Position numbers: made by a program. Below are positions 32,701 to 38,700 of a DNA stretch of 64,000 nucleotides, piece by piece. The DNA lies in the NCBI RefSeq assembly GCF_024223415.1, contig NZ_CP100500.1; one strand, given 5' to 3'. Within the stretch, counting starts at the first letter, position 1, and each line of letters opens with the position of its first letter. This stretch comes from Escherichia coli. GTDB lineage: Bacteria > Pseudomonadota > Gammaproteobacteria > Enterobacterales > Enterobacteriaceae.

Positions 32701-35700
32701 TGCCTGACGGATTGCAGGCTGAATCCTTTACCCTGCAACTGCGTTTTTCGCGCCCTTTACCCGTGGACATCCGGCTGCGCCGCGATTCCCTGCGCCTGTA
32801 TTGCGCACCTGCCATTAATTTATTTATCCACCATGCAGAAGCCATCACGCTGGACAACCGGCGGGCAGACTATCCGCTGGTTCCCAGCCGCCATTACCCA
32901 CAACATTACGATGTATTTTCCGTTAACAGTGTGGTGAGCCAGGTCCAGGATATGTTCAGGAAAAAAGATCTGGGGCGTCCTGTTTCGACGCAGGCCGCGC
33001 GCCAGTGGCCAGCCTTTGAAAGTTTCAGCCATCAGATGGAATACAGCCGGAAGCGGGAAGTGGTGTACTGGCATCACCGGACCAAAACATCCCTGTTCCA
33101 TCGCGGCTTTGATCATACCCTTGCCTTTATACATGCTGATGGCAGTTATCCGTCAGACGAATCTCTGCTCAGTAATGAAGTGGTTTCGGTATCGCTGACC
33201 TGTACCAACCGTGAGCTTCCGTCACAAATTCGTTCCGGCGATATCACCGGCACAACCGGTAAAAATGCGGCTGTTGCTTCATTTCGCAACATTACCCGCC
33301 CGACGCAACCACTCTGGCCGGTCATTGATGGCAGCCTGCACTGGTCCCTACTCTCCGCCATGAACCTGAATTATCTGTCATTACTGGATACGGACGCGCT
33401 GAAGCAGGTCATCGCCAACTTTGATCGCCACGCAATCCATCATCCGCAGACGGCACGGCTGTCACAACAAAAGCTGGATGCCATTGAGCGTCTGGAGACC
33501 CGCCCCGTTGATCGCCTGTTTACGGGTATTCCCGTCCGGGGGCTGGCCTCCACGCTGTATCTGCACCCGGAGCCGTTTGTCTGTGAAGGGGAAATGTATC
33601 TGCTCGGTACGGTGCTTTCGCATTTTCTGTCGCTGTACGCCAGCGTTAACTCATTCCACATGCTGACCGTTGTGAACACAGAAAGCCAAGAGACATGGAA
33701 ATGGACGGAAAGAATCGGGCAGCATCCTCTTATCTGAGTCCGGGAAATCCCCCGGCAGATAAAGAGCAGAATGATCCGCTGGCACAGGTTTTCCATAATG
33801 CCTGCTCTTACAATTTTTTTGCGATGGCGGAGCTGTTGCACCGCCTGGCAAAGGGTGAAAAGGGGACGCCAGAATTATCCCTGCGCGACGATCCGGCACA
33901 GGAAACCCTGCGTTTCAGCGCCGATGCCAGCCTTGCCTTCCCGTGCAGTGATATCAGTGCGCTGATACGGGATACGTCAGGGGCATTCAGGATGACCACC
34001 ACCTTTATGGGGTTACAGGGGAGCCAGTCGCCTCTCCCCGGTTATTACCTCGATCACCTGGCCTGGAAAGCGGTACATGAACAAAGTCCGGTAGGTGATT
34101 TTCTGGATATGTTCAGCCACCGCCTGACCCAGTTTGTCTGGCATATCTGGCGTAAGTACCGCTATCACATCAGTTTTCGTAACGGCGGTGTGGATGCGTT
34201 CTCGCAGCGCATGTACTCCCTTGTCGGGCTGGGCCACCGCCAGCTTCGCGATAAGCTGGCGATTAATCACAGCAAAATGCTGGCGTATTCCGGGATCCTG
34301 GCAAATCCGGGACGATCCCCGGAAATTATCTGTGGCCTGGTGTCCCACTGCTTTGATTTGTCAGAAGTGACGCTGCAAAACTGGCAACGTCGCAAGGTGG
34401 ATATTGAACCGGATCAGCAAAATAGTCTGGGGAGCTATTCTCTTAAAAATGGCGAAAAACTGGCGGGAAGATCGGTACTGGGCAACTTTGTTCTGGGTAC
34501 ACGAGTGCCCGATCTCAGCGGAAAATTCCAGCTCAGTATTACCAGCCTGACCCGAAAACAGTTCCTCTCTTTTCTGCCGTCCGGCGAAAACTTCCTGCCA
34601 CTGACGATGTTCGTGTCCTTCATCCTGCGCGATCAGCTTGCCTGGGACTTACATCTGGGGCTGGCGCCGGAGCAGGTGGGCGCAATGCGCCTGGGCGATA
34701 ACAAAAGTGCGCTGCTGGGCTGGACCAGCTTCCTCGGCACACCGGAAGAACGACCCTCAGTCACCATCAGGGTACGGTCGTAAATTATGATAATCACGGA
34801 GCAGAATATGCCGGAAGAGAAACTACAGACGCTTTCATTGCAGGTCATTAACGGCAGTGAGCTGGAAAGCGGGCGGGCGGCGCGCTGTCTGTTCACACAG
34901 CAGGGAAATGTCGGCCATGGCCCCGAATGCCACTGGTCGGTACAGGATCGTCAGCAGAGCATTCCGGCCCAGGCTTTTACCGTTATCCTGCACGATGGCA
35001 CATTTTGTCTACGCCCGCAGACGGCACAACTGTGGCTGAATCAGGCAAAAGTCACAGCAACATCAGACCTGATACAGTTGCGCCAAGGCGATGAGATCCA
35101 GATCGGACGGCTGATGGTGAGGGTTCATCTGAACCGGGGAGATATTCCCCATTACGATGAGGAAATGGCCACTCCCGAAACCATCGTTACCAATCGCGAT
35201 ATGCTCACGGATACCCTGCTATCAACGGAGGGTGCGCCACACTATCCGGGAATGACTCACCGGCACCAGCTTGCAGACACCGTGGTAAACGGTTTTTCTG
35301 CCGATCCACTCCAAGCACTTCAGTCCGAAAGCCTGATTACCACGGGCGATCCGCTTTCAGGCATTGCGGCTGTCCGGCCATCGGCACCGCTGTCCGATCC
35401 GGCAAGTAATGGGGGGATCAATACTCCGTTTATGGATCTGCCGCCCATTTATGCCAGCCCTGGCGATCATAATGATGACATCTCTGCGGCAGAAATGGCG
35501 CAACGCCACCTTGCGGTCACCCCCTTACTGCGCGGTCTTGGCGGCTCGCTTACCGTGAGCAATTCCGACGATGCGGATGATTTTCTGGAGGAGGCCGGAC
35601 GAACGTTACAGGCCGCAATAAAAGGTCTGCTCGATTTGCAGCAGCAGCGTAACAGCCTCTCAGACAAACATTTGCGCCCGCTGGAAGATAACCCGCTGCG

Positions 35701-38700
35701 CCTGAACATGGATTACGCCACCGCGCTCGACGTGATGTTTGCCGAAGGTAAAAGCCCGGTACATCTGGCGGCTCCCGCCGCCGTCAGTGAAAGCCTGCGC
35801 AATGTCCGCCACCACGAAGAAGCTAACCGGGCGGCGATTGTGGAGTCGCTTCGTGTCCTGCTGGACGCCTTCTCACCACAAAATCTGCTGCGCCGCTTTG
35901 TGCAGTACCGCCGCAGCCATGAACTGCGCCAGCCGCTGGATGATGCCGGAGCATGGCAAATGTACAGCCATTATTACGAAGAACTGGCCTCCGATCGCCA
36001 GCAGGGGTTTGAGATGCTGTTTAACGAGGTCTACGCCCAGGTCTATGACCGGGTGCTTCGTGAAAAACAGCGGGAGCCGGAAGCATGAACAGGAAGGCGT
36101 TTCTGGCCTGCGTGCTGATGTGCGTCATATTAACCGGCTGCGAAACGGCGAAAAAAATCAGCGAGGTGATCAAAAACCCGGATATCCAGGTCGGGAGCCT
36201 GAAGGAACAACCTTCGGAAATAACCGTCACCCTGCTGACTGAACCGGACACCAATACCAATGCGGAGGGTGAATCAGCCGCCGTGGATGTGCAACTGGTG
36301 TACATGACTGACGACTCAAAATTGCAGGCAGCCGACTATGACCAGATAGCCAGTACGCCGCTACCGGATGTGCTGGGTAAAAACTATATCGACCACCAGG
36401 ATTTCAACCTGTTGCCGGACACCATCAAAACCCTGCCGCCGGTAAAGCTGGATGAGAAAACGCAGTTTATCGGTGTCGTGGCCTATTTCTCCGATGACCA
36501 GGCCACTGAATGGAAACAAATCGAGACGGTGGAAGGAACCGGCCACCATTACCGCCTGCTGGTGCATGTACGTCAAAGCAGCATCGAAATGAAAAAAGAG
36601 GATGAATAATTATGGCAACCACCCGCAACAAGGTGATGTGGCAGGAAGGGATGCTGATGCGCCCACACCATTTCCAGCAACAGCAGCGTTACAACGACTA
36701 CCTGGATAACCAGCGTTTCCGGGCCATGAATGATTTATCCTGGGGATTTACCGAACTCACCCTCAACAATGAACTGCTGGCGCAGGGTAAGATCATGATT
36801 GACAGCGCGTCAGGCACACTGCCTGACGGCACCGTCTTTTCTATCCCCGACCAGGACGCACTGCCCGATCCGCTGCACCCGCAAAATTTTCCGGACGAAA
36901 GAAGCCGCAATATTTACCTCGCTCTGCCGGTCACCAGTGATGTGAGAAATGAAATCAGCGACGGGCGGCGAATCGGGCGTTACCGGCTGAATTATGCCGA
37001 TGTCCGGGATCTGCATTCAGAAGAAGGCGACGCGCGAACACTGACGCTGGGACAACTGACGCCGCGCATTATGAGCGGTGCAGAAGATATGAGTGCCTAT
37101 ATTACGCTCCCGCTTTGCCGTATCAGCGATCGCCATGCCGACGGCTCCCTGACGCTGGATGACGATTTTATCCCCTCCTGCCAGAATATTCAGGTCAGTA
37201 AGAAACTGCGTGTTTATCTCAAAGAGGTACAGGGGGCCATTGGCGGACGGGCAAGCGATCTGGCAAACCGCATTGGCTCTCCGGCGCAGAGCGGCATCGC
37301 GGATGTGGCGGAATTTATGATGTTGCAGTTGCTTAACCGTAACCAGACCCGGTTTACCCATCGCGCCCGCCGATCCCAGCTCCACCCGGAAGATTTCTAC
37401 CTTGATCTTGCCGGGTTGCTGGGTGAACTGATGACCTTTACAGAGCCGTCACGCCTGCCCTGCCCGCTTGATGTGTATGATCATCATGACCTGACCAAAA
37501 CATTTAAAACACTGTTACCGGAAGTCAAACGGGCGCTGCATACCGTACTGTCGCCAAGAGCGGTCAATCTGCCGCTGCATCTGCGTGACGGCATCTGGCA
37601 GGCCGATGTTCATGACTCGGAACTGCTACAGTCTGCCACCTTTGTACTGGCCGTGGCAGCAAATATGCCTGTCGATCAGATCCAGCGTCAGTTTATCCAG
37701 CAGTCGAAAATTTCCTCGCCGGAAAAAATCCGCAATATGGTCAGTGTGCAGATCCCGGGTATTCCTCTGCGCGCACTGATGGTGGCCCCCCGCCAGCTTC
37801 CCTACCATTCCAGGTTCAGCTATTTCGAACTCGACAAGAGCGGCCAGGCCTGGACAGAAATGGCTGCCGCCGGGGCCGTTGCACTGCATGTATCCGGCAG
37901 TTTCCCGGATCTGAACATGCAACTGTGGGCGATAAGAGGGTAAGACGATGGATGAGGGGTCACTGTCTCTGCCACCATTTACCGGATACGACGAAAAAAG
38001 CCTGCGCGACTACCATCTCGCGCTTCGTGGCAACAGCCTGAATCCGATGATCGACGCGGCGACGCCGCTACTCGGTATGGTAATGCGCCTTTCCACCATG
38101 AACAGCCAGACGATGCCGGAGCATCTTTTTGCTCAGGTGGTGACAGATGTTCAGGCCGTGGAGCAACTGCTTCAGGAACAGGGCTACGAACCGGGCGTGA
38201 TTATCTCGTTTCGCTACATCCTCTGCACGTTTATTGATGAAGCGGCGCTCGGTAACGGCTGGTCGAACAAGAACGAGTGGATCAAGCAGTCATTGCTGGT
38301 CCATTTCCACAACGAAGCCTGGGGTGGCGAGAAAGTTTTCATCCTGCTGGAGCGCCTGATCCGTGAACCCAAACGTTACCAGGATCTGCTGGAATTTCTC
38401 TGGCTCTGTTTTTCTCTGGGATTTCGCGGGCGCTACAAAGTGGCAGTACAGGATCAGGGGGAATTTGAGCAGATCTACCGCCGTCTGTACCACGTTCTGC
38501 ATAAACTGCGCGGCGATGCCCCTTTCCCGCTGTTACACCAGGACAAAAAAACCCAGGGCGGGCGTTATCAGCTCATCAGTCGCCTGACTGTTAAACATAT
38601 TTTTTGTGGTGGCGTTGTCGTGCTGGCGTTGTTTTACCTGTTCTATCTGTTGCGGCTGGACAGCCAGACGCAGGACATCCTGCACCAGCTAAACAAATTA

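What the first reader, a model, noticed from the sequence alone, without database searches (positions are those of the whole stretch)
34787..36088. FHA-domain T6SS protein without a cognate threonine kinase/phosphatase in the cluster
An FHA protein is encoded between tssG and tssJ, but no PpkA-like kinase or PppA-like phosphatase ORF is present in the island. The FHA protein either acts phospho-independently (as proposed for some Vibrio-type systems) or relies on a kinase encoded elsewhere.
Basis: inference. Interest (0 to 1): 0.3.

Follow-up and report, generated by a model that had tools for sequence, protein, structure and literature searches.

The report
Kinase-less T6SS scaffold TagH of E. 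coli
This is the ordinary, already-annotated TagH/Fha gene of the common E. coli type VI secretion island; it has no partner kinase, as the literature already notes, and its FHA domain has lost the residues that bind phosphothreonine, so it most likely works as a phosphorylation-independent assembly scaffold.

Summary
ORF 34787-36088(+) encodes TagH/Fha: an FHA fold, a disordered linker and a T6SS_FHA_C domain. It lies between tssG and tssJ in the E. coli T6SS-2 island at tRNA-Asp (aspV). No Hanks kinase or PP2C phosphatase exists in any of the six frames of the 64-kb window.

It is not new. RefSeq calls the gene tagH in 2,247 of 5,426 complete E. coli genomes. The literature already lists E. 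coli O157, V. cholerae and Y. pestis as having fha without ppkA/pppA.

What I add:
- The FHA fold is kept, but every phosphothreonine-pocket residue except Gly is replaced (Arg→His37, Ser→Pro53, His→Ala56, Thr-Asn→Ala73-Gln74).
- None of 80 related species keeps the Arg, and none has a kinase or PP2C within 10 kb.
- The two informative relatives with a canonical pocket have PP2C and kinase genes in their clusters.
- The Leu residues needed for V. cholerae Fha condensates are invariant.

So the phospho-independent reading is favoured, with TagH acting as a TssL-binding, condensate-forming scaffold.

In this strain tssM (nonsense codon 136) and vasI (frameshift) look broken, so the system is probably inactive. 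Interest is low.

The parts
34787..36088 (+). tagH (fha) ORF; the likely true start is ATG 34808 (426 aa). Residue numbers below use the 426-aa numbering; add 7 for the 433-aa ORF numbering.
34826..35137 (+). FHA-fold beta-sandwich, residues 7-110
   Evidence: AF2 domain model: mean pLDDT 90, pTM 0.79. All 50 top Foldseek PDB hits are FHA domains, TM about 0.65. The profile hits Rv0020c, Rad53 and GarA FHA domains.
34913..34918 (+). Gly36-His37, in place of the canonical Gly-Arg (the Arg binds the phosphate)
34964..34975 (+). Pro53-Ala54-Gln55-Ala56, in place of the canonical Ser-x-x-His
35021..35029 (+). Thr72-Ala73-Gln74, in place of the canonical Ser-Thr-Asn (followed by Gly)
35138..35485 (+). 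Pro/Ala/Thr-rich linker, residues 111-226, predicted disordered (pLDDT below 50 for 139-165 and 175-225)
35432..35434 (+). Internal in-frame ATG (Met209), 5 codons downstream of the position that aligns with the Vibrio internal start. Possible but unproven start of a short isoform.
35486..36073 (+). Helical C-terminal domain (T6SS_FHA_C), residues 227-422
   Evidence: Pfam 142 bits; pLDDT about 90; dN/dS about 0.06
35564..35668 (+). Long helix 253-287 carrying Leu267, Leu274 and Leu275, which align with V. cholerae L334/L341/L342 (the condensate helix)
   Evidence: PMC13389060
33695..34783 (+). tssG, upstream neighbour
36085..36609 (+). tssJ, downstream neighbour; overlaps the tagH stop by 4 nt
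37948..38709 (+). tssL (DotU), the inferred binding partner of the TagH N-terminal region
   Evidence: the partner is inferred from V. cholerae
43742..47176 (+). tssM, interrupted by TAG at 44147-44149 (codon 136)
41474..42216 (+). vasI, frameshifted by a 1-bp deletion at about 41841

Best explanation
The gene encodes TagH/Fha of the E. coli T6SS-2 (V. cholerae-type) secretion system. It is a three-part scaffold made of a degenerate FHA domain, a disordered linker and a helical C-terminal domain. It most likely starts T6SS assembly without any threonine phosphorylation. [quoted passage not shown] The C-terminal domain self-associates into condensates through its Leu-rich helix and recruits baseplate proteins such as TssE. 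Shown here: the domain architecture, the loss of the pocket residues, the absence of a kinase and phosphatase, and conservation of the Leu helix. Inferred from V. cholerae: the binding partners, condensate formation and a requirement for secretion. In this particular strain the product probably has no output, because tssM and vasI are broken.
For: Identity: TIGR03354 at 340.9 bits, T6SS_FHA_C at 142 bits and V. cholerae gene order.

FHA fold retained: a profile of the domain hits solved FHA domains, and the AF2 model (pLDDT 90) matches only FHA domains in its top 50 hits.

Pocket lost: Arg→H37, Ser→P53, His→A56 and Thr-Asn→A73-Q74, with the register confirmed by the alignment to Rv0020c, 'IGR..vSRRH..sTNGT'.

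Clade-wide pattern: in 80 species, 0 of 78 keep the Arg and 4 of 79 keep the His. There are no kinase or PP2C hits in 1.57 Mb of their neighbourhoods, and the positive control works.

Association with kinases: both informative canonical-pocket relatives (P0252, P0255) carry PP2C and Pkinase genes right after tssM. Five non-canonical representatives with contexts of 15 kb or more, plus one of 9.6 kb, carry none.

Scaffold features: the linker is disordered and the C-domain is helical, and L274/L275 are invariant in 80 of 80 species.

Still under selection: dN/dS is about 0.19 for the FHA domain and about 0.06 for the C-domain.

Literature: V. cholerae TagH is required for Hcp secretion, and no phosphorylation of it was detected by Phos-tag or mass spectrometry (PMC8993066). 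Fha N-terminus binds TssL-cyto in an E. coli two-hybrid assay and in vitro, the C-domain drives condensates, and L341A abolishes them (PMC13389060).
Against: No experiment on the E. coli protein was available. All functional steps are transferred from V. cholerae Fha, which is only about 30-35% identical.

His37 could in principle still contact a phosphate.

In V. cholerae, mutating the residues at the former Arg and Ser positions (S38, K54) impairs secretion, and the authors read this as phosphopeptide binding.

E. coli has Ser/Thr kinases elsewhere, including YegI.

The pocket-kinase association rests on only two informative canonical cases, and the 80 species are phylogenetically clustered.

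dS is saturated, so the dN/dS values are rough.
Confidence: 0.7

Rival explanations
1. TagH still works through phosphothreonine. A kinase encoded elsewhere in the chromosome, for example the Hanks-type YegI with the PP2C PphC, phosphorylates TssL or another partner, and the FHA domain reads that mark with a non-canonical pocket.
For: E. coli encodes YegI and PphC outside the island (bioRxiv 10.1101/819920 and 10.1101/303594, listed). The 2023 review proposes unidentified kinases for V. cholerae (PMC10482370). The V. cholerae S38A and K54A mutants lose Hcp secretion. His37 is a potential phosphate ligand.
Against: Four of the five signature residues are gone in E. coli TagH. The residues at those positions vary freely among 80 species: Ser, His or Cys at the Arg site, and Gln or Ala at the His site. 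That is not what a conserved phosphate pocket looks like. No phosphorylation of V. cholerae TagH was detected. Fha N-terminus binds TssL-cyto in heterologous and in vitro settings.
Confidence: 0.15
2. TagH is itself a kinase substrate, as Fha1 is in P. aeruginosa, and is phosphorylated in its linker or C-terminal part by a distant kinase to license assembly.
For: Precedent in P. aeruginosa and S. marcescens (PMC10482370). The linker is rich in Thr and Ser.
Against: No kinase or PP2C is found in the window or in 80 orthologous neighbourhoods. Phos-tag and mass spectrometry found no phosphorylated form of the V. cholerae orthologue.
Confidence: 0.07
3. In this strain the gene is an intact passenger in a dead system. 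With tssM truncated at codon 136 and vasI frameshifted, TagH has no function here whatever its biochemistry.
For: GAG→TAG at 44147 and a 1-bp deletion at 41841 relative to strain EC1515. Inactivation of tssM is a documented route of T6SS loss in E. coli lineages (PMC10711316).
Against: Both lesions are single-base events absent from every complete RefSeq genome (best match 99.9%), so they could be sequencing errors. tagH itself differs from EC1515 only by two third-position CAG→CAA changes, both Gln. This rival concerns activity in one strain and is compatible with the best explanation of what the protein is.
Confidence: 0.6

Closest known systems
V. cholerae TagH/Fha (VCA0112)
   Same: Same position in the same gene order (tssG-fha-tssJ). 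No ppkA or pppA. Same architecture of FHA domain, linker and T6SS_FHA_C. The canonical Arg and Ser of the pocket are replaced (V. cholerae S38 and K54, per PMC8993066; E. coli H37 and P53). The Leu-x6-Leu-Leu condensate helix is conserved.
   Different: Only about 30-35% identity to the Vibrio representatives. E. coli has also lost the structural His, which most Vibrio-type relatives keep. The Vibrio internal start Met aligns with Ile204 in E. coli, which instead has a Met 5 residues later and no clear RBS. The E. coli linker is shorter. The E. coli cluster lacks vasH.
E. coli T6SS-2 island at aspV (EHEC EDL933 z0243-z0275; ST410 and ST131 loci)
   Same: Same island type and same insertion site next to tRNA-Asp. 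It has rhs, two hcp genes, two tssA-like genes and an FHA gene. tagH is 95-100% identical in 2,218 complete genomes.
   Different: Essentially nothing for tagH. This strain additionally carries the tssM nonsense codon and the vasI frameshift.
P. aeruginosa Fha1 / S. marcescens Fha (threonine phosphorylation pathway)
   Same: Same family: an FHA domain plus a C-terminal Fha domain, encoded next to tssJ-K-L. They also initiate T6SS assembly.
   Different: Those proteins have the canonical pocket (Fha1 R32 and S48), are phosphorylated by a cluster-encoded PpkA and are reset by PppA. Here the pocket residues, the kinase and the phosphatase are all absent. The canonical relatives I sampled (P0252, P0255) show the architecture fha-tssJKLM-PP2C-kinase.
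A. tumefaciens Fha
   Same: The FHA protein docks on TssL.
   Different: [quoted passage not shown] Neither the kinase nor the motif exists here.

Membership tests
TagH/Fha, T6SS-associated FHA protein (NCBIfam TIGR03354) | Full-length match above the curated cut-off | tested here: met
   340.9 bits against a cut-off of 120.25, covering profile positions 1-420 of 420
TagH/Fha, T6SS-associated FHA protein (NCBIfam TIGR03354) | N-terminal FHA fold | tested here: met
   Pfam FHA 22.3 bits against 20.7. The profile hits solved FHA domains at E = 3e-5. AF2 pLDDT is 90 and all 50 top Foldseek hits are FHA domains.
TagH/Fha, T6SS-associated FHA protein (NCBIfam TIGR03354) | C-terminal T6SS_FHA_C domain (PF20232) | tested here: met
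   142.1 bits, profile positions 1-179 of 180; helical, pLDDT about 90
TagH/Fha, T6SS-associated FHA protein (NCBIfam TIGR03354) | Encoded inside a T6SS core-gene cluster | tested here: met
   Lies between tssG and tssJ, with all 13 core genes identified
TagH/Fha, T6SS-associated FHA protein (NCBIfam TIGR03354) | Required for Hcp secretion and sheath assembly | not testable with these tools
   Needs a tagH deletion in a T6SS-2-active E. coli strain
Canonical phosphothreonine-binding FHA domain | Conserved Gly-Arg in the beta3-beta4 loop | tested here: not met
   Gly36 is kept, but the Arg is His37. The Arg is kept in 0 of 78 related species.
Canonical phosphothreonine-binding FHA domain | Ser-x-x-His in the beta4-beta5 loop | tested here: not met
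   Pro53 and Ala56 occupy the Ser and His positions. His is kept in 4 of 79 species and Ser in 5 of 79.
Canonical phosphothreonine-binding FHA domain | Thr-Asn(-Gly) in the beta6-beta7 loop | tested here: not met
   Ala73-Gln74, with the Gly column a gap
Canonical phosphothreonine-binding FHA domain | Measured binding to a pThr peptide | not testable with these tools
   Needs ITC or fluorescence polarisation with the purified domain
Threonine phosphorylation pathway (PpkA-PppA-Fha) | Hanks-type kinase PpkA encoded in the cluster | tested here: not met
   No Pkinase hit in any island ORF. The six-frame PknB search gave a best hit of 7 bits, and the control loci score 31-58 bits.
Threonine phosphorylation pathway (PpkA-PppA-Fha) | PP2C phosphatase PppA encoded in the cluster | tested here: not met
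   The six-frame PstP search gave a best hit of 5 bits, and the control loci score 71-74 bits.
Threonine phosphorylation pathway (PpkA-PppA-Fha) | Phosphorylation of Fha or TssL on Thr | not testable with these tools
   Needs phosphoproteomics. It was negative for V. cholerae TagH.
V. cholerae-type kinase-less Fha condensate scaffold | V. cholerae gene order without a kinase | tested here: met
   Order tssB-C-E-F-G-fha-J-K-L-clpV-vasI-tssA-tssM-vasL, with vasH missing; compare L087 and L090
V. cholerae-type kinase-less Fha condensate scaffold | Leu-rich C-terminal helix (V. cholerae L334/L341/L342) | tested here: met
   L267/L274/L275 lie in helix 253-287. L274 and L275 are invariant in 80 of 80 species.
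V. cholerae-type kinase-less Fha condensate scaffold | Internal start codon with an RBS that yields a short isoform | tested here: inconclusive
   The Vibrio Met aligns with Ile204. Met209 is kept in 30 of 31 loci of the close clade, but the only SD-like run lies 14 nt upstream and is not conserved.
V. cholerae-type kinase-less Fha condensate scaffold | Condensate formation and TssL/TssE binding | not testable with these tools
   Needs purified protein and imaging

The most novel reading that the evidence does not exclude
Loss of the phosphothreonine pocket and loss of the PpkA/PppA pair are coupled across the whole V. cholerae-type T6SS lineage. The FHA domain of these TagH proteins would then be a 'pseudo-FHA' that has been repurposed as a phosphate-independent TssL-docking module. 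The enterobacterial proteins may also make a short C-terminal isoform from an internal Met that has shifted 5 codons relative to Vibrio.
Probability: 0.45. Interest if true: 0.35.

Novelty: already known. Interest (0 to 1): 0.15.

Why it matters
It matters little as a discovery. The gene is annotated, it is common (about 41% of complete E. coli genomes), and its lack of a cognate kinase is already noted in print.

The modest value lies in the residue-level result. The E. coli protein, and all 80 related orthologues sampled, lack the phosphate-binding residues, while the informative relatives with an intact pocket carry a kinase and phosphatase. That gives a simple sequence rule for predicting whether a T6SS is under threonine-phosphorylation control. 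It also cautions against describing the V. cholerae-type residues as 'conserved phosphopeptide-binding sites'.

The broken tssM and vasI mean this strain's T6SS should not be assumed to be functional.

Tried and rejected
1. A single-sequence phmmer search of TagH against the PDB found nothing. Only the family profile reached FHA structures.

2. My first tabulation of the Ser and His columns was off by one or two residues. I corrected it from the printed alignment and confirmed the register against Rv0020c.

3. I first took Met230 as the candidate internal start because it sits just before the C-domain and is present in 56 of 80 species. I rejected it: there is no SD (-2.8 kcal/mol, about the gene-wide average) and it does not align with the Vibrio Met.

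4. I then misread as aligning Vibrio Met263 with E. coli Met209. Counting column by column, and using the 80-species alignment, the Vibrio Met aligns with Ile204, and Met209 lies 5 residues downstream.

5. The genome-contig scan returned only the 80 closest relatives (40-99% identity). It could therefore not sample kinase-linked Fha proteins, and I used single-protein context look-ups instead.

6. The contigs for P0222, P0232 and P0241 were too short to judge whether a kinase is present.

7. dN/dS is only indicative, because dS exceeds 1 for nearly all pairs and is undefined for several.

8. A regex search for PPP-family phosphatase motifs and for the Hanks catalytic loop found nothing.

9. 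I did not find a V. cholerae VCA0112 sequence. The mapping of M262 and L341 relies on three other Vibrio TagH proteins (V. hepatarius, V. palustris, V. diazotrophicus/plantisponsor), whose numbering is within one residue of the published V. cholerae numbering.
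Full report
**What is at the coordinates.** An ORF runs from ATG 34787 to the stop at 36086-36088 on the + strand, 433 aa. 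It matches Pfam T6SS_FHA_C strongly (142.1 bits, aa 249-422) and Pfam FHA marginally (22.3 bits against a cut-off of 20.7, aa 42-107). It matches NCBIfam TIGR03354 'TagH' end to end (340.9 bits against a cut-off of 120.25). The upstream gene is tssG and the downstream gene is tssJ. RefSeq annotates the same gene, 99.8% identical, as tagH, starting 21 nt later at ATG 34808. That start has a GGAG 8 nt upstream. I number residues from it (426 aa).

**Where the window comes from.** The window is E. coli chromosome. Positions 16788-54085 align at 99.55% to strain EC1515. The island lies between yafV/ivy and tRNA-Asp (52018-52094)/dnaQ. This is the aspV site of the EHEC EDL933 37-kb T6SS island (PMC5363993). 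The organisation is the one called T6SS-2 in E. coli, with rhs, an FHA gene, two hcp genes and two tssA-like genes (PMC10711316). tagH is present in 2,247 of 5,426 complete E. coli genomes.

The island runs as follows:
- On the minus strand: a Sel1/TPR gene, rhs, vgrG and hcp.
- On the plus strand: tssB, a 74-aa ORF, tssC, tssE, tssF, tssG, tagH, tssJ, tssK, tssL, clpV, vasI, tssA, tssM, vasL and hcp.
- After that comes low-GC cargo.

This is the V. cholerae gene order without vasH.

**Is a kinase or phosphatase really absent?** Yes.
- No island ORF hits Pkinase, PP2C or SpoIIE.
- I verified a PknB kinase-domain sequence and a PstP PP2C sequence against the PDB. PknB scores 617 bits to 1MRU. 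PstP scores 501 bits to 2CM1 and also hits the T6SS phosphatase PppA, 6JKV, at E = 9e-34.
- I searched all 809 stop-to-stop segments of the six frames of the whole window with both sequences. The best hits were 7 and 5 bits.
- The same procedure recovers the kinase (31-58 bits) and the PP2C (71-74 bits) in two control T6SS loci.

**Is this already known?** Yes. Wang et al. 2022 state that some T6SS clusters contain only the FHA gene without ppkA and pppA, 'such as those of V. cholerae, E. coli O157, and Y. pestis'. They also report that V. cholerae TagH is needed for Hcp secretion, and that Phos-tag and mass spectrometry detected no phosphorylated form (PMC8993066). The 2023 review repeats this (PMC10482370).

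**Is the N-terminal domain a real FHA domain?** The Pfam score is borderline. The precomputed Pfam calls for 120 close relatives list only PF20232 and never PF00498. However, a profile of 52 N-terminal domains hits solved FHA domains: 1UHT, Rv0020c/FhaA 3PO8, Rad53 FHA1, GarA, Ki-67 and EmbR, with a best E of 3e-5. An AlphaFold2 model of residues 1-122 has mean pLDDT 90 and pTM 0.79 and is an all-beta sandwich. Its 50 best Foldseek matches in the PDB are all FHA domains, with TM about 0.6-0.7 and rmsd 2.3-3 Å. The fold is retained.

**Can it still bind phosphothreonine?** The family alignment includes three relatives with the canonical signature (P0222, P0252, P0255: 'IGR ... vSSLH ... STNG'). 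Against these, E. coli TagH reads 'VGH ... IPAQA ... TAQ-'. That means Gly36 is kept, Arg→His37, Ser→Pro53, His→Ala56 and Thr-Asn→Ala73-Gln74. The HMMER alignment to Rv0020c ('IGR..vSRRH..sTNGT' against the consensus 'iGs..isaeH..sgkv') confirms the register.

| Sample | Canonical Arg | Canonical His | Canonical Ser |
|---|---|---|---|
| 85 diverse full-length representatives | 3 keep the full signature; 59 have Ser at the Arg position | not tallied separately | not tallied separately |
| 80 species of Enterobacterales and Pasteurellaceae | 0 of 78 (49 Ser, 27 His, 2 Cys) | 4 of 79 | 5 of 79 |

The residues at these positions vary freely, which is not how a conserved ligand pocket behaves. Wang et al. 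equate V. cholerae S38 and K54 with Fha1 R32 and S48. By their own alignment, then, the canonical residues are replaced in V. cholerae too.

**Does the pocket track with the kinase?**
- None of the 80 orthologous neighbourhoods (±10 kb, 1.57 Mb in total) contains a kinase or PP2C.
- Both canonical-pocket relatives with enough context show fha-tssJ-tssK-tssL-tssM-PP2C-Pkinase. The third contig was too short.
- Non-canonical representatives with contexts of 15-21 kb (P0150, P0186, P0194, P0217, P0182) and one of 9.6 kb (P0208) show V. cholerae-type clusters without a kinase or PP2C.

This is a clean association, but the sample of canonical cases is small.

**Is the degenerate domain still used?** dS is saturated, so these values are rough. 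dN/dS is about 0.19 for the FHA domain, about 0.19 for the linker and about 0.06 for the C-terminal domain. The FHA domain accumulates amino-acid changes about four times faster than the C-domain: median dN is 0.39 against 0.095. So the FHA domain is constrained, but more loosely.

**How it most likely works.** In V. cholerae, Fha is the initiator of assembly. Foci form before the sheath and independently of TssM, TssA and TssE, and TssL and TssG assemblies need Fha. The N-terminal part (residues 1-261) binds the cytoplasmic domain of TssL in an E. coli two-hybrid assay and in vitro. The C-terminal domain binds TssE and drives phase separation, and L341A abolishes the condensates.

The whole-protein model of E. 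coli TagH has the same plan:
- FHA domain, residues 7-110, pLDDT above 94.
- Disordered Pro/Ala/Thr-rich linker, pLDDT below 50 for 139-165 and 175-225 (composition).
- Helical C-domain, residues 227-422, with a long helix at 253-287.

Using three genuine Vibrio TagH proteins, the Leu-x6-Leu-Leu motif (P0165 L335/L342/L343, which corresponds to V. cholerae L334/L341/L342) aligns with E. coli L267/L274/L275. L274 and L275 are invariant in 80 of 80 species.

I therefore favour a phosphorylation-independent scaffold (confidence 0.7). The partners and the condensates are inferred, not shown.

**The short isoform.** V. cholerae makes a second product from internal Met262 with its own RBS. The Vibrio Met aligns with E. 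coli Ile204. Yersinia, Photorhabdus, Xenorhabdus and Serratia keep a Met there ('AMDQEF'). The Escherichia/Citrobacter/Enterobacter clade instead has a Met five residues later (Met209, in 30 of 31 loci). In E. coli the only SD-like run, GGGGGA, lies 14 nt upstream of that ATG, and it is not conserved. This is a hint only.

**State of the system in this strain.** Relative to EC1515, tssM carries GAG→TAG at 44147. This is codon 136, just after the Walker A motif GPAGSGKTT. vasI has a 1-bp deletion at about 41841, and its two halves match VasI profile positions 2-60 and 68-184. No complete RefSeq genome is 100% identical across this stretch. The lesions are therefore either private to this strain or sequencing errors. 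If they are real, the T6SS is inactive here, as in other E. coli lineages that lost tssM. tagH itself differs from EC1515 by two CAG→CAA changes at third codon positions, both Gln.

**Verdict.** The feature is already known and ordinary. Interest is 0.15.

Noticed in passing
window 43742-47176 (TAG at 44147-44149): tssM has an in-frame stop at codon 136 (GAG in EC1515, TAG here), just after the Walker A motif. No complete RefSeq E. coli genome shares it. It is either a private pseudogene or a sequencing error.
   Followed up: partly
window 41474-42216 (deletion at about 41841): vasI is split by a 1-bp deletion into two ORFs, which match VasI profile positions 2-60 and 68-184.
   Followed up: partly
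window 41477/41474 junction: There is no vasH (sigma-54 activator) between clpV and vasI. The V. cholerae-type clusters L087, L088, L090 and L091 all carry one. Published work says the E. coli island is H-NS-repressed.
   Followed up: no
window 29713-29937 (+): A 74-aa ORF lies between tssB and tssC. It has no Pfam hit and is annotated as hypothetical in EC1515. The tssB-tssC gap of about 310 bp is unusually long.
   Followed up: no
window 48563-51690: This is a low-GC (35-38%) cargo block downstream of vasL. It holds a second hcp, a 312-aa protein with no family hit (frameshifted in EC1515, intact here), a DUF1311/LprI-like protein, a 118-aa ORF and a 266-aa lipoprotein-like ORF on the minus strand. 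It is probably an Hcp-linked effector and immunity set.
   Followed up: no
window 47187-48536: PGAP flags the VasL-domain gene as frameshifted in EC1515. The window is identical in this region, with no indels, so the same call would apply here, although a 479-aa ORF covers the ImpA_N and VasL domains.
   Followed up: no
window 19322-19849 (-): An ISAs1-family transposase remnant sits at the left edge of the island, with indels relative to EC1515.
   Followed up: no
window 8620-10392 (+): A truncated flhA-like gene (FHIPEP profile from position 99) is a Flag-2 remnant. The rest of the Flag-2 lateral-flagella cluster found in EC1515 is absent, and phoE, frsA, pepD and dinB lie upstream instead.
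   Followed up: no
window 21148-25536 (-) and 20153-21103 (-): A 1,462-aa Rhs protein (DUF6531, RHS repeats, RHS core) lies downstream of vgrG and is followed by a Sel1-repeat protein. GC is 62% and there is a strong negative GC skew, unlike the rest of the island.
   Followed up: no
L035-L073 (Yersinia, Photorhabdus, Xenorhabdus, Serratia TagH): These orthologues keep a Met at the position of the Vibrio internal start ('AMDQEF[LVI]DLP'). They would be better candidates than E. coli for a conserved short Fha isoform outside Vibrio.
   Followed up: partly
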